From a virus (taxonomy: Duplodnaviria; Heunggongvirae; Uroviricota; Caudoviricetes): DNA of 36,921 bases. The stretch spans positions 1-36,921 of IMG/VR virus record IMGVR_UViG_2531839667_000014; one strand, 5' to 3'. The first letter of the stretch is position 1. Every line of letters starts with the position of its first letter. A program made the position numbers and the translations under genes. The notes below the pieces were generated by a model, which worked only from the letters and a program-made list of their open reading frames with translations, did not search any database and had not been told where the DNA came from. Below, piece by piece: positions 1,464-35,933 of this stretch.

Positions 1464-4400
1464 TCAACGAATACTGATGCCGGAAGCCGCTTTTTTGGTC
1501 ACAATCACCGTACAGTCGGTGATATTGCCTGCCCCCTGATTGCCTTTCTGGAAAATCTTAAACTCCAGAGTGACGCTACCACCACCACTAGGCATATCAA
1601 TAACTGCACTGTAACTACCGGGAATGGCCCCTTTAGTTTCTCTGGATGCGATTAATACACCGTTTTTGCGAACTTCAAAACCATAACCCGTGTAACTTGT
1701 ACCTCCCGGGTTATTACCACTTCCCGGATAGCTATACGCTATTCCGTTAAAGATAATGGGCGGAATAATGATTTGACGGTCAAAGTTATGATCATCGCTG
1801 ATGGTGACTGTAACCGTCCCGTTTGGTGTTTCCGTGTTACCCCACGTACCAGCCTGTTTCGGGAATGATTTGGATACAGCTTTAACGAAGTCACCTCTGA
1901 CCTGAGTCGCCTCCAGCATGCCCTTAATCGTACAGTTTTCATTTACCGTGACGTTGTTGAGCGTCCCGGAGTTCGCATTCACACTGCCACTGATATCCGC
2001 ATTTTTAGCGGTCAGCTTTCCGTCTGATGTCAGGGAAAATACCGGAGGACTGCCACCACTGGTAATGGTGGGAGCCGTCAGGCGCTTCAGGAACACGTCG
2101 TTCATGAATATCTGATTGCCCTGCGCCACAAACATCGGCGTTTCATTCCCGTTTGCCGGGTCAATAAACGCGATACGGTTAGCGGCAACCAGAAACTGGC
2201 TCAGCTTGCCTTCTTCCGTGTCCTCCATGCTGAGGCCAATACCCGCGACATAATGTTTGCCGTCTTTGGTCTGCTCAATTTTGACGCCCCACATGGCATT
2301 CCATTTATCGTTAGCGTCCTTCCACTCTTTCGAAAACTCCTCCAGTCTGCTGGCGTTATCCTCCGTCAGATCGACTTTTTCCAGCAGCTCCTTGCCGAGA
2401 TGAGATTCGGTTATCTTGCCTTTGAAAAAATCCAGGTAACCTTCCGCATCATCGCTCGCCCGACCGACGGCCTCCACGAATGCCGATTTGCCAACGGTGT
2501 TCACACTGCGAACATAAAAGTAATAATCATGGCCCGGTTTGATATTGATACTGGCGGCTATCCAGTACAGCCCCGTGCCAAGGTAGCGGGCTGTGGTTTC
2601 AACCTGCCTGATATCGGTAATCCGCGTTTCCGAGAACCAGAACTCAAACTGTACCGTCGGATCATAAACCGCAAGATGCGGCGTGGCAGTTATCTGAAAA
2701 TAGCCCGGCGTCAGCTCAATCTGTGACGGCGCTGCCGGTGCGGCAATCCGGAACGATACCGACGCCGGATCGCCCTGCTGTCCCCGGGCATTTACCGCCC
2801 GGACTGTCAGCGTGTAACGCCCCAACGCCAGCTGCCTGAAGCGGTATGTGGTTTCCGTCGTCCGGGCCGTGCTGACCAGCCGCTCACTGCCGTCATCCGC
2901 TGCCACGGTCAGGCGAAGCATAAAGCTCCCCCCCTTCACCACCTTCGGCGTGTCCCAGCGCGCCAGCACCTGGTATTCCCCGCTGTCTGCGGTGACTTCT
3001 GCGGTCAGGTGCTGCACTGCTGGCGGCGTGACACCATTCACCGTGCCGCTCTGGTCGCCGTCAAAGTGCGCCCCGTTATCCACGATGGCCTCTTTCTCCG
3101 GCACATGCTGCACAGCGGTGATGGCATACGTGCCGTCGTCATTCTCACGGATACTCACGCAGCGGAACAGGCGCTGGCGCAGCGTCGGCAGCTTCAGCCC
3201 CCATACGCTGTATTCAGCAACACCGTCAGGAACACGGCTCACTTTTACCTTCACGCCGTCGGTGACGGACTGAACCTCCACGCTGACCGGATTGCCACTT
3301 CCGTCAACCAGGCTTATCAGCGTGGTACCGGAGGATGGCAGCGTGATTTCACGGTCGAGCGTCAGCGTCCGGGTCTGGCTGTTCACCGCCAGCACACGAC
3401 CACCGGTGCTGATACCGGCATAGTCATCATCACAGATTTCAATGACATCGCCCGGCACATGGCGAAGCCCTTCTGCGCCCACGCAGAAGTCCACGGTCTG
3501 CGTTTCCAGCAGTTCTGTTTTAATCAGCCACAGCCCGGCGCGGTGTGCCTGCCCCCGGCTGGTACAGCCAAAAGCATCCATCTTCGTGACGTTACGACCG
3601 TAACGGGCAATGGCCTGCGTATCCTCCACAAGCTCTGTCGCCGTCTCCCAGCCGTTGTCCGGGTCAATCCAGTTCACCTCAACGGCATTATGGCGGTCTT
3701 TCAGGGCGCTGAAGCTGTAGCGGAACGGCGCGCCATCATCCGGCATCACCACATTACTGCGGTTATAGGTCCACACCTTATCCGACGGTCGGTCCTGCAC
3801 GAACGTCAGCGTCTGCCCGTTCCATACCGGCATACAGCGCATCGCCGAGCAGAAATCACTGAGCACATCCCACGCCTTGCGCTGTGTGGTCAGGTACGCA
3901 TTACAGGTGATGCGCGGCTCCGTGCCGCCAAAGCCGTCCGGCACTGACTGGTCGCAGTACTGGCCGATGACATACAGCGCCCATTTGTCCACATCCGCCG
4001 CACCAAGACGTTTCCCCATGCCGTAGCGTGGATGGGTCAGCATATCCCACAGACACCAGGCCATGTTATTGCTGTATGCTGGCTTAAACGTTCCGTCCCA
4101 GATACCGCTGTATTGCCGCGTCTGCGGGTTATAGTTCGACGGCACCTGCAGAATACGCCCGCGCAGATGATAATTACGGCTCACCTGCTGGCTGCCGAAC
4201 TGCTCCGAATCCACCTGTACGCCGACCAGTGCCGTGTTCGGGTAGCACTGTTTCACATCGATGATTTCGGTGTATGACGACCAGAGCGTTTTGTTCTGCA
4301 GCTGGTCTGTGGTGCTGTCCGGCGTCATCCTGCGCATCCGGATATTGAACGGGCGCGGCGGCAGGTTACCCACCACCACCGATGCCAGATACTGTGAGGT

Positions 4401-26562: not shown

Positions 26563-26718
26563 TTACTCCTCAGGTTCGTAAGCTGTGAAGACAGCGACCT
26601 CCGTCTGTCCGGTTCGGATTCGTACCTCGCAGAGGTCTTTCCTCGTTACCAGTGCCGTCACAATGACGGTTAAACAGATGACGATCAGGGCGATTAGCAT
26701 CGCCTTTTGCTGCTTCAT
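26563..26718 (-). CDS. hok: Hok-family type I toxin (HokD/RelF-like)
   Basis: 51 aa MKQQKAMLIALIVICLTVIVTALVTRKDLCEVRIRTGQTEVAVFTAYEPEE; single TM helix; AAGGAG RBS; the track ORF is extended in frame by 19 codons. Confidence 0.9.
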   Translation of the reverse strand: MKQQKAMLIALIVICLTVIVTALVTRKDLCEVRIRTGQTEVAVFTAYEPEE

Positions 26719-31466: not shown

Positions 31467-31495
31467 ATTCATAGTGTTGACATTTGTTCACCTAA
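31467..31495 (+). promoter_or_regulatory. promoter of the dicB-type operon with overlapping operator
   Basis: TTGACA (31467..31472), 17-nt spacer, AACAAT (31490..31495); operator TGTTC-N9-GAACA at 31475..31493 has the same geometry as the site in the cro-like promoter. Confidence 0.6.
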
Positions 31496-31578
31496 AGAGA
31501 ACAATGTATTCCATCAAAGTACAACGGTGCGACAGGTCTTAGTTCCGCTACCCCGGCGTTAAGGGGAAATGAGGTCAC

Positions 31579-32452: not shown

Positions 32453-32508
32453 TTTCTGGTGACGTTTGGCGGCATCTGTTTGCCCATGAACTGATGTCCG
32501 CCCTTTTT
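32453..32508 (+). ncRNA. dicF: DicF-like small RNA (cell-division inhibitor sRNA)
   Basis: TTTCTGGTGACGTTTGGCGG...GATGTCCGCCCTTTTT: the 5' and terminator-hairpin ends match K-12 DicF as I recall it; sits between ydfC and dicB; exact ends uncertain. Confidence 0.6.
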
Positions 32509-32677
32509 AAAGTGAATTTTGTGATGCGGTGAATGCGGCTAAGCGCACGCGGAACAGTTAAAGCTAAAAACAGTGTTATGGGTGGATTCTCTGTATCCGG
32601 CGTTAATTGTTAACTGGTTAACGTCACCTGGAGGCACCAGGCACCGCATCACAAAATTCATTGTTGAGGACGCGATA

Positions 32678-32866
32678 ATGGAAACGTTATTACCAAACGT
32701 TAATACGTCTGAAGGTTGTTTTGAAATTGGTGTCACTATCAGCAATCAGATATTTACTGAAGATGCCATTAATAAAAGAAAACACGAACAGGAACTGCTA
32801 AATAAAATATGCATTGTTTCGATGCTGGCCCGTTTACGTCTGATGCAAACAGGATGCAGGCAATGA
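32678..32866 (+). CDS. dicB: cell division inhibitor DicB
   Basis: 62 aa METLLPNVNTSEGCFEIGVTISNQIFTEDAINKRKHEQELLNKICIVSMLARLRLMQTGCRQ, near-identical to K-12 DicB from memory; GAGGA RBS; the track ORF is over-extended upstream. Confidence 0.9.
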   Translation: METLLPNVNTSEGCFEIGVTISNQIFTEDAINKRKHEQELLNKICIVSMLARLRLMQTGCRQ

Positions 32867-33143: not shown

Positions 33144-35615
33144 ATGAGTAAAGTCTTTATTTGCGCCGCCATTCCGGACGAACAGGCAACAGCAGAAGGC
33201 GCCAAACCTGTGGCCACTGCCATTGAAGCAGGCGACGAACGCCGGGCAAGAGCCAAATTTAGCTGGTTATTTCTGGAACAATACCCGGAAGCTCAGGACT
33301 GTGCTTATAAATTTCTTGTCTGCGAGGATAAACCCGGCATGGCCCGCCCTGCTCTCGATTCCTGGGATTCCGAATATATGCAGGAAAACCGCTGGAATGA
33401 GGAGTCGGCTTCCTTTGTTCCGGTCGACCCTGAACCGGATACAGAAACTGTTAACTTTAATCAGTTATCTGAAGACAAGCGGGCTGCTGTCCTTGTCAGG
33501 TTCGGTACACATGAAAACATCACCGTGGATATGGTCATCAATGCAAGCGGGCTTCTCGGCGATGACGAGATGACGACTTTTGATGGACACCTCACTGAAG
33601 CAATTATCAGGACTAAAGAAATTAACGCCATGTATCCTGAGCGTCAGACTGAGTACATCAACGATGCCAGACGTGATTTAAAACCAACAGCCAAATGGCC
33701 CGACGTTCAGGCGTATTTTCTCGAACGTAAAAAACGCATGGAAAAGGAGCGCAAAGAAGGTGGAGCATATAATTCCGTCGTCGATCTTGCCCGCGCCAGA
33801 GTCAACCGGCAAGGCACTGAAAACTCTGCAGGAAAAACTGACTCCGTAACTGCTGTCGTTCGTCGCGAATACAGGCAGACATGGAAAACACTGGATGAAG
33901 AACTGGCCTACGCTTTCTGGCCTGGTGATATTGATGCCGGAAACATTGACGGCAGCATCCATCGCTGGGCAAAAAATGAAGTTATCGACAAAGATCGCGA
34001 AGACTGGAAGCGTATTTCCGCATTAATGCGCAAACAACCTGATGCCGTTCGCTACGACCGTCAGACTATTTTTGGCCTTGTCCGTGAGCGTCCGATCGAC
34101 ATTCACAAAGATCCCGTGGCGCTGAACAAATACATCACTGAATACCTGGCGACAAAGGGCGTGTTTGAGGATGAAGAAACAGACCAGAGCACTGCTGATA
34201 TTCTCCAGCCGTCAGCAGCACAAACTGATGCAGTGGAAACTGAAGTATCTGATACCCAAAAAAATGAAAGCGCGCTGGAAACTGAACCATCTGTAGAGCG
34301 TGAAGGACCGTTCTACTTCCTCTTCACCGATAAGGATGGCGAAAAATATGGTCGTGCAAACAAACTTTCTGGTCTGAATAAGGCGCTGGCTGCCGGGGCT
34401 ACTGAAATCACGAAAGAAGAATATTTTGCCCGTAAAAACGGCACGTACTCAGGTTCACAACAAAATACTGGTGCATCTGACACGACCGCACAACCAGAGC
34501 CGGTAAAAGTTACCGCTGACGAAGTAAACAAAATTATGCAGGCAGCCAATATCAGCCAGCCTGACGCCGATAAGTTGCTTGCTGCCTCTCGCGGAGAATT
34601 TGTTGCAGGGATTAGCGACCCGAATGATCCGAAATGGGTGAAGGGGATTGAAACCCGCGATTCTGTAAACCAGAACCAGCAAGAATCGGAACAGAACGAC
34701 CAGAAAGCGGAACAAAACAGCCCAAATGCGCAACAAAACGAGCCAGAAACGAAACAATCCAAACCAGTAACGCAACAGGAACCTGAAAAAGTCTGCACCG
34801 CCTGCGGTCAGAGCGGTGGCGGCAACTGCCCTGATTGTGGCGCGGTGATGGGCGACGCAACATACCAGGAAACATTCGATGACGAGAATCAGGTTGAAGT
34901 TCAGGAAGACGATTCGGAGAAAATGGAAGGCGCTGAACATCCACACAAGGAGAATGCTGGCAGCGATCAGGATCACGCCAGCGATAGTGAAACTGGCGAG
35001 ACGGCAGATCCCTTAATTGCGGTGAACGGTCATCACGTTATCACATCCACCAACAGAGCGGGGATTCATCTGATGATCGACCTTGAAACCATGGGAAAAA
35101 ATCCTGATGCCCCGATTATCGCAATAGGTGCAATATTTTTCGATCCGCAAACCGGAGATATGGGGCCGGAATTTAGCAAGACCATCGATCTGGATACTGC
35201 TGGCGGAGTCATTGATCGTGACGTCATTAAATGGTGGCTTAAGCAATCACGTGAGACGCAATCTGCCATTCTGACCGATGAAATTCCGTTAGATGATGCA
35301 CTACTGCAATTGCGGGAATTTATAGATGAAAACTCCGGTGAATTTTTTGTTCAGGTCTGGGGAAATGGAGCCAACTTCGACAACGTGATTTTACGCCGTT
35401 CATACGAACGACAGGGTATCCCCTGCCCGTGGCGCTACTGCAACGATCGCGATGTACGCACAATCGTTGAGCTGGGGAAAGCTATAGACTTCGATGCCAG
35501 AACGGCTATCCCATTCGAAGGTGAGCGCCACAATGCACTTGATGACGCCCGTTACCAGGCAAAATACGTTTCAGCTATCTGGCAAAAACTGATCCCGAAT
35601 CAGGCTGATTTTTAA
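33144..35615 (+). CDS. large multidomain protein: RecE-like N-terminal/central regions, zinc ribbon, C-terminal DEDDh 3'-5' exonuclease domain
   Basis: 823 aa; C-terminal motifs DLET, NGANFD and HNALDDA (DnaQ-like DEDDh); CxxC-x8-CxxC (CTACGQSGGGNCPDCG); Q/N/E-rich low-complexity linker; central segment ...LLAASRGEFVAGISDPNDPKWVKGIETRD... resembles Rac RecE from memory. Confidence 0.8.
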   Translation: MSKVFICAAIPDEQATAEGAKPVATAIEAGDERRARAKFSWLFLEQYPEAQDCAYKFLVCEDKPGMARPALDSWDSEYMQENRWNEESASFVPVDPEPDTETVNFNQLSEDKRAAVLVRFGTHENITVDMVINASGLLGDDEMTTFDGHLTEAIIRTKEINAMYPERQTEYINDARRDLKPTAKWPDVQAYFLERKKRMEKERKEGGAYNSVVDLARARVNRQGTENSAGKTDSVTAVVRREYRQTWKTLDEELAYAFWPGDIDAGNIDGSIHRWAKNEVIDKDREDWKRISALMRKQPDAVRYDRQTIFGLVRERPIDIHKDPVALNKYITEYLATKGVFEDEETDQSTADILQPSAAQTDAVETEVSDTQKNESALETEPSVEREGPFYFLFTDKDGEKYGRANKLSGLNKALAAGATEITKEEYFARKNGTYSGSQQNTGASDTTAQPEPVKVTADEVNKIMQAANISQPDADKLLAASRGEFVAGISDPNDPKWVKGIETRDSVNQNQQESEQNDQKAEQNSPNAQQNEPETKQSKPVTQQEPEKVCTACGQSGGGNCPDCGAVMGDATYQETFDDENQVEVQEDDSEKMEGAEHPHKENAGSDQDHASDSETGETADPLIAVNGHHVITSTNRAGIHLMIDLETMGKNPDAPIIAIGAIFFDPQTGDMGPEFSKTIDLDTAGGVIDRDVIKWWLKQSRETQSAILTDEIPLDDALLQLREFIDENSGEFFVQVWGNGANFDNVILRRSYERQGIPCPWRYCNDRDVRTIVELGKAIDFDARTAIPFEGERHNALDDARYQAKYVSAIWQKLIPNQADF

Positions 35616-35681: not shown

Positions 35682-35933
35682 ATGTACGAATTAACTCTAT
35701 CGCCAGCAGAGATTAGAGAGCTCACGAGATACGAACGGTACACAAAACAGCAACACCAGTTAAGGTTGCACGGTATCCCATTTGTAACCGGTCCTAAAAA
35801 CGAACCAATAGTTCTTCGCAGTGATGTTCCACGCGGAGTGACTGCGATGCCGAAAGTATCTGAACTGGTTTCTGCTGAACCCGATTTTGAGGCGCTGAAC
35901 AATGGGAAGACCAAGAAAAAACAAAAAAGATAA
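35682..35933 (+). CDS. xis: excisionase
   Basis: 83 aa, basic C-terminus, overlaps the int start by 32 nt as lambda xis does. Confidence 0.8.
   Translation: MYELTLSPAEIRELTRYERYTKQQHQLRLHGIPFVTGPKNEPIVLRSDVPRGVTAMPKVSELVSAEPDFEALNNGKTKKKQKR

What the first reader, a model, noticed from the sequence alone, without database searches (positions are those of the whole stretch)
33144..35615. 823-aa exonuclease fusion protein with no annealase partner
The protein sits where lambdoid phages carry exo/bet or recE/recT, but the next gene is xis and no RecT or Bet-like annealase is present. Its C-terminal ~190 residues carry DnaQ-like DEDDh motifs (DLET, NGANFD, HNALDDA), which indicate a 3'-5' exonuclease and not the 5'-3' nuclease fold expected for RecE. 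Upstream are a CxxC-x8-CxxC zinc ribbon, a Q/N/E-rich disordered linker and a ~400-aa N-terminal region of unknown function. A 3'-5' DNase or RNase without a recombination partner suggests another role, such as degrading host or competitor nucleic acid, anti-defence, or signalling-nucleotide turnover. This is the strongest candidate for an undescribed function in the window.
Basis: partly seen in the sequence, partly recalled or inferred. Interest (0 to 1): 0.7.

Follow-up and report, generated by a model that had tools for sequence, protein, structure and literature searches.

The report
RecE-scaffold prophage protein with 3'-5' exonuclease head
This is a very common but untested E. coli prophage protein that keeps the front part of the recombination nuclease RecE, carries a 3'-5' exonuclease of the opposite polarity at its end, and never has the DNA-annealing partner gene recT next to it.

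Summary
ORF 33144-35615 encodes 823 aa. Its last ~180 residues are a DEDDh 3'-5' exonuclease (Pfam PF16473, E 6e-65) with catalytic residues D646, E648, D746, H796 and D801. No RecT, Bet, lambda Exo or Gam is encoded in any frame of the window.

The N-terminal part is not an orphan. It is the YdfE/RecE scaffold (Pfam YdfE_N and YdfE_C). Residues 262-624 are homologous to Rac RecE, and 474-624 are 73% identical. The sequences diverge at about residue 625, just before the nuclease.

This scaffold occurs with four alternative C-terminal heads:
- the RecE PD-(D/E)XK nuclease, with recT downstream in 14 of 14 loci;
- this DEDDh head, with recT in 0 of 6 genome loci and 0 of 80 viral loci, always followed by xis-int;
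- a Rad52-fold annealase, next to a Gam-like gene;
- an unknown head.

The gene lies at the end of the repressor-controlled early-left operon. It is under purifying selection, is present in viable phages, and occurs in 2308 of 5426 complete E. coli genomes.

My best reading (confidence 0.45, inferred) is a DNA-end-trimming 3'-5' exonuclease of the lytic cycle that works without its own annealase. I found no experimental work on it. I rate it a new variant of a known kind, of moderate interest.

The parts
33144..35615 (+). Whole gene: 823-aa fusion of the YdfE/RecE scaffold with a DEDDh exonuclease (RefSeq WP_000048600.1, 'exonuclease')
   Evidence: ORF list. PHROG 2082 matches 1-823 of 823. 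100% identical to NZ_CP090611.1 2547734-2550205.
33144..33926 (+). Scaffold module A (aa 1-261). AF2 shows two folded parts: an alpha/beta part at aa 1-95 and a helical part at aa 100-205. It is replaced by PF06630 'Exonuc_VIII' (RecE_N) in other family members.
   Evidence: PHROG 5943. AF2 pLDDT 80-93. Module swaps. dN/dS 0.30. No PDB fold match.
33927..34499 (+). Scaffold module B (aa 262-452). It contains a helical domain at aa 245-340, a disordered acidic stretch at aa 345-384, and a conserved mini-domain at aa 388-432 (GPFYF...GRANK). It is distantly homologous to the RecE middle region.
   Evidence: NCBIfam PRK09709 aligns aa 238-626 to model positions 261-603. tblastn with Rac RecE. AF2. 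Invariant columns R386 G388 P389 F390 Y391 G403 R404 N406 K407. dN/dS 0.24.
34563..35015 (+). Block shared with Rac RecE at 73% identity (aa 474-624). It holds the conserved segment RGEFVxGISDPNDPKW, the Q/N/E-rich linker, the zinc ribbon and an acidic tail, and it ends at the head-swap junction.
   Evidence: BLASTP against Rac-SA53 RecE, E 3e-67. At DNA level, nt 1438-1834 of the gene are 84.9% identical to recE (H25).
34794..34838 (+). Zinc ribbon C551-x2-C554-x7-C562-x2-C565
   Evidence: Sequence. Conserved in Rac-SA53 RecE. Weak Pfam DZR hit, E 0.13.
35067..35582 (+). DEDDh 3'-5' exonuclease head (aa 642-813) with catalytic D646, E648, D746, H796 and D801
   Evidence: PF16473, E 5.9e-65. 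T4 DexA is the only solved relative found by sequence. Catalytic columns are invariant in the alignment with DexA and phage relatives. dN/dS 0.19.
31477..31505 (+). Promoter-like site (TTGACA-17-AACAAT) downstream of the repressor-gene terminator. It is the likely early-left (pL/dicBp-type) promoter of the ydfA-ydfB-ydfC-DicF-dicB-DUF1482-exonuclease-xis-int operon.
   Evidence: Consensus scan only. No promoter-like site was found directly upstream of the exonuclease on the + strand. Gene order. Function inferred.
35682..35933 (+). Excisionase (DUF4224), the gene immediately downstream where RecE-type phages carry recT
   Evidence: PHROG 1266, E 1e-20. RefSeq annotation. The same exonuclease-xis-int order holds in all 80 viral loci.

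Best explanation
**What it is.** The gene encodes the DEDDh-head variant of the modular YdfE/RecE protein family of Rac/Qin-type lambdoid phages.

**When it is made.** It is the last large gene of the repressor-controlled early-left operon, so it is made after induction or infection and not in the quiescent lysogen (inferred from gene order and one promoter-like site).

**Scaffold.** The N-terminal ~630 residues are four small folded modules joined by disordered acidic or Q/N/E-rich linkers, plus a zinc ribbon. The same scaffold carries RecE's 5'-3' nuclease or a Rad52-fold annealase in sister phages. I therefore infer that it assembles or targets its cargo at DNA ends or recombination intermediates.

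**Head.** The C-terminal head is a metal-dependent DEDDh exonuclease that removes nucleotides from free 3'-OH ends. The fold family and catalytic residues are shown. DNA as the substrate is inferred from T4 DexA, the only solved relative.

**Consequence.** The head replaced both the RecE nuclease domain and recT, so this is not a two-component exonuclease-annealase recombinase. I propose it is a single-component enzyme that trims or resects the 3' strands of linear DNA ends during lytic growth. That would expose 5' tails or remove 3' tails on the phage's own replication and recombination intermediates. Any annealing or strand exchange would be left to host functions.
For: - **Head identity.** PF16473, E 5.9e-65. 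DexA catalytic D7, E9, D119, H186 and D191 align with D646, E648, D746, H796 and D801. The motifs are kept across the family.
- **Scaffold homology to RecE.** Shown.
- **Same slot as recE-recT and exo-bet-gam.**
- **Four interchangeable heads on the scaffold.**
- **Link between head type and recT.** RecE head: recT in 14 of 14 loci. DEDDh head: 0 of 6 and 0 of 80.
- **Fixed downstream order.** xis-int always follows.
- **Purifying selection.** Folded modules have dN/dS 0.14-0.30; the linker has 0.50.
- **Viable phage.** mEp460 has the same arrangement.
- **DNA-break precedent.** T4 DexA acts on DNA and takes part in break-dependent intron homing (abstract of PMC12153337).
Against: - No experiment exists; substrate, polarity and timing are all inferred.
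- A 3'-5' exonuclease destroys the 3' tails that RecA and annealases normally use, so a pro-recombination role is not obvious.
- The nearest standalone relatives of the head (59% and 54% identical) lie among accessory early genes without a classic annealase. The head may therefore have a role unrelated to recombination.
- The Pfam family is named after an exoribonuclease, so RNA is not excluded.
- Operon membership rests on gene order and one consensus promoter match.
Confidence: 0.45

Rival explanations
1. Inter-phage competition or defence. The exonuclease degrades the nucleic acid of other phages: modified DNA as claimed for the E. coli DexA homologue EcD ('HREX'), or RNA-phage 3' ends as for the TONDO DEDDh proteins. 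The scaffold would act as the auxiliary domain.
For: - PMC12153337 reports that plasmid-borne EcD, a DexA-family E. coli exonuclease, protects against T4.
- PMC13344964 reports prophage- and plasmid-borne DEDDh exonucleases with variable auxiliary domains that block MS2 and Qbeta.
- dicB, in the same operon, is known to give phage exclusion (my knowledge: Ragunathan and Vanderpool 2019).
- The head family occurs in 1312 phage records.
Against: - EcD is a different, standalone protein. Its cloning primers show it starts MIDTET and ends TIPETYD.
- By alignment, DexA's proposed 5hmC-contact residues W152 and D169 correspond to C766 and A780 here.
- The TONDO authors state that their genes are distinct from other defence-linked DEDDh domains, and PF00929 matches this head only weakly (E 4.5e-4).
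- The gene sits at the far end of a repressor-controlled lytic operon with no promoter-like site of its own.
- The scaffold is shared with bona fide recombination proteins.
Confidence: 0.2
2. Host-DNA scavenging or host takeover. Like T4 DexA, it degrades host DNA fragments or oligonucleotides to mononucleotides during lytic growth.
For: DexA is the only solved homologue, and host-DNA scavenging is its classical role.
Against: - Lambdoid phages are not known to degrade the host chromosome (my knowledge).
- DexA works downstream of dedicated endonucleases, and none is evident in this operon.
- This role does not explain a 630-aa scaffold shared with RecE and an annealase.
Confidence: 0.12
3. 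3'-5' exoribonuclease. As in the family's namesake Rv2179c, the head trims RNA 3' ends, for example in processing or decay of the long early-left transcript that also yields DicF, or of host RNAs.
For: - The Pfam family is named for an exoribonuclease, and many database entries call the protein '3'-5' exoribonuclease'.
- A DicF-like sRNA lies 640 nt upstream in the same operon.
Against: - By sequence, the only solved relative found is the DNase DexA. No solved RNase was reached even with a profile.
- The scaffold partners (RecE nuclease, Rad52-fold annealase) are DNA enzymes.
- The database names are transferred by homology, not tested.
Confidence: 0.1
4. Anti-defence. The enzyme destroys a nucleic-acid component or signal of a host immune system, such as retron msDNA, 3'-ended DNA that triggers a sensor, or linear oligonucleotide signals.
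For: - Early-left operons of lambdoid phages commonly carry counter-defence genes such as gam and ral.
- The absence of an annealase partner fits a stand-alone activity.
Against: - There is no direct evidence.
- Cyclic signals lack a free 3' end.
- No known anti-defence protein uses this fold or scaffold, as far as my literature searches show.
Confidence: 0.08

Closest known systems
RecE (exodeoxyribonuclease VIII) of the Rac prophage, with its partner RecT
   Same: - It occupies the same position at the distal end of the early-left operon, before xis-int.
- The middle region is homologous (aa 262-624, 40% identity overall). Residues 474-624, including the zinc ribbon, are 73% identical.
- Other DEDDh-head members even carry RecE's own N-terminal PF06630 module: 21 of 80 viral loci and P0129.
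   Different: - The catalytic head is DEDDh (3'-5'), not PD-(D/E)XK (5'-3').
- The NCBIfam RecE equivalog scores 274 bits against a cut-off of 1269.
- recT is absent.
- The N-terminal 261 aa differ from Rac RecE.
T4 DexA (exonuclease A; PDB 8KEL and 8KEN)
   Same: It has the same DEDDh fold family and is the only solved structure reached by sequence (E 2e-4 with the single sequence). All five catalytic residues are conserved. It is a phage early gene acting on DNA 3' ends.
   Different: - Identity is only about 24-30%.
- DexA is a standalone 227-aa protein with extra loops.
- DexA W152 and D169 are not conserved by alignment.
- DexA belongs to a virulent phage that degrades host DNA.
EcD / 'HREX' (E. 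coli DexA homologue, PMC12153337)
   Same: An E. coli-encoded DexA-family exonuclease. It is the only member from E. coli with a published functional claim (anti-T4).
   Different: EcD is a standalone protein with different termini (MIDTET...TIPETYD) and has no YdfE scaffold. I could not obtain its sequence, so its identity to this head is unknown.
YdfE (Qin prophage, E. coli K-12) and the Pfam families YdfE_N (PF27430) and YdfE_C (PF27432)
   Same: The scaffold of this protein carries both families, according to the precomputed Pfam hits of its near-identical homologues. The prophage is Qin-like: ydfA, ydfB, ydfC, DicF and dicB lie upstream.
   Different: From my own knowledge (not tested here), K-12 ydfE is a truncated remnant. 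No function has been reported for YdfE.
Rv2179c (M. tuberculosis 3'-5' exoribonuclease), namesake of PF16473
   Same: Same Pfam family.
   Different: Rv2179c is a standalone bacterial RNase. It was not reached in the PDB sequence searches, even with a profile.

Membership tests
DEDDh 3'-5' exonucleases, Rv2179c-like/DexA-like (PF16473) | Significant full-length match to the family profile | tested here: met
   218.7 bits against a cut-off of 27, E 5.9e-65; profile positions 2-177 of 177.
DEDDh 3'-5' exonucleases, Rv2179c-like/DexA-like (PF16473) | Catalytic residues: D-x-E (Exo I), D (Exo II), H-x4-D (Exo III) | tested here: met
   D646 and E648 (DLET), D746 (NGANFD), H796 and D801 (HNALDD). 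These are invariant columns in the alignment with DexA and phage relatives.
DEDDh 3'-5' exonucleases, Rv2179c-like/DexA-like (PF16473) | 3'-5' exonuclease activity, and substrate (DNA or RNA) | not testable with these tools
   Needs a nuclease assay.
RecE / exodeoxyribonuclease VIII (NCBIfam NF007259 equivalog) | Whole-protein score above the curated cut-off | tested here: not met
   273.7 bits against a cut-off of 1269. Only aa 238-626 align, to model positions 261-603.
RecE / exodeoxyribonuclease VIII (NCBIfam NF007259 equivalog) | C-terminal PD-(D/E)XK nuclease domain | tested here: not met
   There is no match to the RecE nuclease region or to DUF3799, whereas Rac-SA53 RecE has it.
RecE / exodeoxyribonuclease VIII (NCBIfam NF007259 equivalog) | Cognate RecT annealase gene immediately downstream | tested here: not met
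   No RecT in six frames of the window. RecT is present in 0 of 80 and 0 of 6 related DEDDh loci, against 14 of 14 RecE-head loci.
YdfE/RecE scaffold family (Pfam YdfE_N PF27430 + YdfE_C PF27432) | Match to both scaffold families | tested here: inconclusive
   These models are not in the local Pfam copy. Homology of aa 1-470 to 37 family members is shown by alignment A4.
HREX (hmC-recognising exonuclease; DexA/EcD, PMC12153337) | Tryptophan and acidic residue equivalent to DexA W152 and D169 | tested here: inconclusive
   By MAFFT these align with C766 and A780. W763 and D782 lie 2-3 residues away, and the alignment is only 24% identical. Position 766 is C, Y or W across the family.
HREX (hmC-recognising exonuclease; DexA/EcD, PMC12153337) | Loss of the tetramer-forming aspartate (DexA D90; alanine in EcD) | tested here: not met
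   D718 aligns with DexA D90 and is retained.
HREX (hmC-recognising exonuclease; DexA/EcD, PMC12153337) | Protection against T4 and selective cleavage of hmC DNA | not testable with these tools
   Needs plaque and nuclease assays.
Two-component phage recombinase (exonuclease + single-strand annealing protein) | An annealase (RecT, Red-beta, Erf, Rad52/Sak-type) encoded in the same module | tested here: not met
   Queries for Erf and Sak4 were not included in the tblastn; for those families the evidence is only the PGAP and PHROG annotation of the window.

The most novel reading that the evidence does not exclude
The YdfE/RecE scaffold may be a general delivery platform that brings interchangeable DNA-end enzymes to one shared target: a 5'-3' nuclease, a 3'-5' nuclease, a Rad52-fold annealase, or an unknown head. 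On this reading the DEDDh version defines a single-component pathway of reversed polarity that needs no annealase. It would resect 3' strands so that linear phage ends either anneal through their 5' tails or become poor substrates for RecBCD. That would stand in for both Red/RecET and Gam in a large share of E. coli lambdoid phages.
Probability: 0.2. Interest if true: 0.8.

Novelty: new variant of a known kind. Interest (0 to 1): 0.55.

Why it matters
- **Prevalence.** About 43% of complete E. coli genomes carry this gene, often in several copies, including many prophages of pathogenic strains. Yet I found no paper on its function.
- **Annotation.** The comparison shows that 'exodeoxyribonuclease VIII' annotations in Enterobacteriaceae cover at least four proteins with different activities on one scaffold. 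One of them is an annealase rather than a nuclease.
- **Biology.** If the 3'-5' version supports recombination or end protection on its own, it would change how the recombination modules of lambdoid phages are understood. These modules drive prophage mosaicism and the spread of toxin genes.
- **Tools.** It could also add a reagent to the RecET/Red recombineering toolbox.
- **RecE itself.** The scaffold is a tractable route to the unexplained role of the N-terminal ~600 residues of RecE.

Tried and rejected
- **Missed annealase.** Rejected by six-frame tblastn, by the PHROG scan and by annotation.
- **RecE-type nuclease fold in the C-terminus.** Rejected.
- **The protein is the published EcD.** Rejected from the cloning primers in the paper's supplement.
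- **Literature.** 'Rv2179c + prophage', 'PF16473' and 'YdfE + prophage' gave no functional study. The 'full-length RecE' search was swamped by 'receptor' papers.
- **DicF.** The Rfam gathering scan missed it, and my remembered DicF sequence gave no match. The E-value scan then found a DicF-like RNA.
- **Decaying pseudogene.** Rejected by dN/dS of 0.14-0.30 in the folded modules and by the full-length 823-aa form in most loci.
- **Ungapped dN/dS.** My first, ungapped calculation for module A was wrong because of a compensated indel. It was redone on a codon alignment.
Full report

Yes. The window is E. coli DCE7 (NZ_CP090611.1, 2514591-2551511). It is a lambdoid prophage of the Qin/dicB type integrated next to yccA.

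ORF 33144-35615 (+) has an ATG start preceded by GAGG and encodes 823 aa. The Pfam hit it predicted is found: PF16473, aa 642-813, E 5.9e-65, full profile length.

The zinc ribbon is C551/C554/C562/C565, which is CxxC-x7-CxxC. The stretch at aa ~505-550 is strongly Q/N/E-rich. The next genes are an excisionase (PHROG 1266, E 1e-20) and a tyrosine integrase.

**2. Is an annealase really missing?**

Six-frame tblastn of Rac RecT, lambda Bet, Exo and Gam, RalR and YdaC against the whole 36.9-kb window gave nothing better than E 0.2. The RefSeq annotation of the whole prophage lists none. A PHROG scan of ten early-region ORFs gave a replication initiator, CII-like, Ren-like, HNH and unknown families, but no annealase.

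The viable phage mEp460_ev081 has the same order: dicB, DUF1482, exonuclease, xis, int.

I examined 80 IMG/VR loci whose head is 93-96% identical. None has RecT, Bet, Exo, Gam or a Rad52-like head within 8 kb. In each of the 77 loci where my script found the ORF (76 of them with DNA downstream), it is followed at +53 to +73 bp by a 67-89-aa ORF of the size and position of xis, and then, in nearly all of them, by a large ORF of 223-451 aa in the position of the integrase. The integrase of this window matched 33 of the 80 loci. Several different xis-int cassettes are involved.

**3. What is the N-terminal part?**

It is not unrelated to known proteins.
- The NCBIfam RecE equivalog aligns aa 238-626 to model positions 261-603, at 274 bits against a cut-off of 1269.
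- Against the 1048-aa RecE of phage Rac-SA53, aa 262-624 align at 40% identity, E 1e-64.
- Residues 474-624 are 73% identical. This block holds the segment RGEFVxGISDPNDPKW, the Q/N/E linker, the zinc ribbon and an acidic tail.
- Homology stops at about residue 625. RecE continues into its PD-(D/E)XK domain (DUF3799 hit), while this protein continues into the DEDDh domain.

Precomputed Pfam hits on the identical database protein are PF27430, PF16473 and PF27432. The first and last are named YdfE_N and YdfE_C.

An AlphaFold2 model of aa 1-470, built from 38 aligned homologues, has mean pLDDT 73.7. It shows four confidently folded modules:
- aa 1-95, alpha/beta;
- aa 100-205, helical;
- aa 245-340, helical;
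- aa 388-432, a small beta-beta-alpha-beta-alpha unit carrying the family's most conserved residues.

**4. The family is modular.**

A search of 1.84 billion representative proteins with aa 1-640 found only 240 clusters at E <= 0.001, many of them fragments. Dissecting the long members showed that the scaffold modules combine with four alternative C-terminal heads. The modules are A or the RecE PF06630 N-terminus, B or the RecE middle region, the conserved segment, and the zinc linker.

The four heads are:
- the DEDDh exonuclease;
- the RecE PD-(D/E)XK nuclease;
- a ~290-aa head bearing the motif KKSLTDALKKALSLLGFSAD;
- a ~250-aa head with no family match.

All combinations occur. P0133 has this protein's A+B modules with a RecE nuclease. 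P0129 has RecE's own N-terminus with the DEDDh head.

Loci of this type in Klebsiella, E. albertii and Citrobacter read: KilR, GamL (or a weak Gam hit), fusion, Sipho_Gp157, xis, int. The fourth type occupies the same slot.

The slot is thus the phage's recombination module. It corresponds to gam-bet-exo in lambda and recE-recT in Rac.

**5. Head type and recT are linked.**

A genome scan with the divergent DEDDh-head member P0235 returned 23 loci from a dozen or so Enterobacteriaceae genera.
- Six loci have a DEDDh head: Citrobacter youngae, three Enterobacter, Kosakonia, and one unnamed gut isolate. None has recT. xis and/or int hits follow in five of the six.
- Fourteen loci have a RecE nuclease head and enough downstream DNA to judge. 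All have recT immediately downstream.

The exchange therefore replaced 'nuclease domain plus recT' as one unit. The left junction lies in the acidic linker.

**6. Is the gene functional, and when is it expressed?**

Compared with the mEp460 copy, dN/dS is 0.30 for module A, 0.24 for B, 0.14 for the conserved segment, 0.50 for the linker and 0.19 for the head. dS differs about fourfold between modules, as expected for a mosaic gene. The catalytic motifs are kept across the representatives.

Of 5426 complete E. coli genomes, 2308 have a copy covering at least 80% of the gene. The median is two matching places per genome among genomes with any match.

All genes from ydfA to int are co-oriented. 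The only good promoter-like site on that strand is TTGACA-17-AACAAT at 31477-31505. It sits just after the terminator of the dicA/cI-like repressor gene. No such site lies directly upstream of the exonuclease. I infer, but have not shown, that the gene belongs to the repressed early-left operon and is expressed on induction.

**7. What does the head resemble?**

By sequence, the only solved relative is T4 DexA (8KEL and 8KEN; E 2e-4 with the single sequence). A profile search added only marginal DnaQ-type hits. DexA's D7, E9, D119, H186 and D191 correspond to D646, E648, D746, H796 and D801.

DexA is a DNA 3'-5' exonuclease involved in host-DNA scavenging and in break-dependent intron homing (PMC12153337). 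The same paper claims that a standalone E. coli homologue, EcD, degrades hmC-DNA and blocks T4. The cloning primers show that EcD starts MIDTET and ends TIPETYD, so it is not this protein. DexA's proposed hmC-contact residues W152 and D169 align with C766 and A780 here, and the tetramer residue D90 is retained as D718. Membership of 'HREX' is therefore not supported, although the alignment is weak.

A 2026 preprint describes prophage DEDDh exonucleases with variable auxiliary domains (TONDOs) that block RNA phages (PMC13344964). These are ISG20/RNase T-like, and PF00929 matches this head only marginally (E 4.5e-4).

The head family is widespread in phages, with 1312 records. Its closest standalone relatives are 59% identical (phage Lys8385Vzw) and 54% identical (Yersinia phage P840). 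They lie among accessory early genes (RdgC-like, Lar-like, Ead/Ea22, DUF551) with no classic annealase.

**8. Most likely mechanism.**

Shown:
- a DEDDh exonuclease head with intact catalytic residues;
- a RecE-family scaffold;
- location in the recombination slot;
- absence of any annealase;
- purifying selection.

Inferred: the protein is made early in lytic growth. The scaffold brings the head to the same DNA-end or recombination context to which it brings RecE nuclease or the Rad52-fold annealase in sister phages. The head then removes nucleotides from 3'-OH ends of DNA.

Because recT was lost together with the RecE nuclease, this is not an exonuclease-annealase recombinase. I take it to be a single-component 3'-end trimming or resection enzyme. 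Annealing or strand exchange, if needed, would come from host functions.

From general knowledge, not tested here:
- 3'-5' resection can also expose complementary strands, as with the poxvirus polymerase exonuclease and with E. coli ExoIII-dependent in vivo cloning;
- RecBCD loads poorly on ends with long single-stranded tails.

Both a recombination role and an end-protection role are therefore conceivable. My confidence in this reading is 0.45.

The rivals are:
- inter-phage defence or competition (0.20);
- host-DNA scavenging (0.12);
- an RNA exonuclease role (0.10);
- anti-defence (0.08).

**9. Novelty and verdict.**

Its interpretation is partly supported. The function is indeed undescribed: no literature turned up for YdfE, for Rv2179c-like prophage proteins, or for PF16473.

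However, the protein is an abundant, already catalogued family (PHROG 2082; Pfam YdfE_N and YdfE_C plus PF16473). The evidence places it in a DNA-end or recombination setting rather than in nucleotide signalling.

I class it as a new variant of a known kind: a RecE-family protein with a head of opposite polarity and no partner. Interest is 0.55. It is not a surprise at the level of fold, but it is a common, experimentally tractable gap, and the modular scaffold with four heads gives a direct handle on the long-unexplained N-terminal part of RecE.

Noticed in passing
window 32454-32503 (+): A DicF-like small RNA lies between ydfC and dicB. It scores 43.5 bits (E 7e-8) over the full model but falls below Rfam's gathering score of 48, so the default scan missed it. 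A sub-threshold STnc100-like match (39 bits, below the gathering score of 47) follows at 32501-32710 and overlaps the start of dicB.
   Followed up: partly
[not shown]
   Followed up: yes
L008 6001-8109 (protein P0126, Enterobacter): A fourth C-terminal head of about 250 aa sits on the same scaffold, in the same slot (KilR, fusion, xis, int). It has no Pfam match, and its only PHROG match is a family of unknown function.
   Followed up: partly
L096-L118 (23 genome loci from Enterobacteriaceae): Head type and recT are perfectly linked. All 14 loci with a RecE-nuclease head and downstream DNA have recT immediately after it; all 6 loci with a DEDDh head lack it.
   Followed up: yes
window 33144-34553 (aa 1-470): The scaffold is predicted as four small, confident domains joined by disordered linkers. 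None has a recognisable solved-structure relative. The mini-domain at aa 388-432 (GPFYF...GRANK) holds most of the invariant residues but is absent from Rac-SA53 RecE.
   Followed up: partly
L090 4995-5567 (phage Lys8385Vzw); L091 4995-5567 (Yersinia phage vB_YenS-P840): Standalone 190-aa relatives of the head (59% and 54% identical) are annotated 'exonuclease' and 'exodeoxyribonuclease VIII'. They sit among accessory early genes (RdgC-like, Lar-like, Ead/Ea22, DUF551, PrtN-like) with no classic annealase.
   Followed up: partly
window ~2098-2556 (-) and 26563-26718 (-): According to RefSeq, an IS200C transposase is inserted between the lom-like gene and the tail-fibre genes, and a hokD type I toxin gene lies in the region between the replication and Q-like genes. 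tRNA-Gly and tRNA-Thr genes lie upstream of the lysis genes.
   Followed up: no
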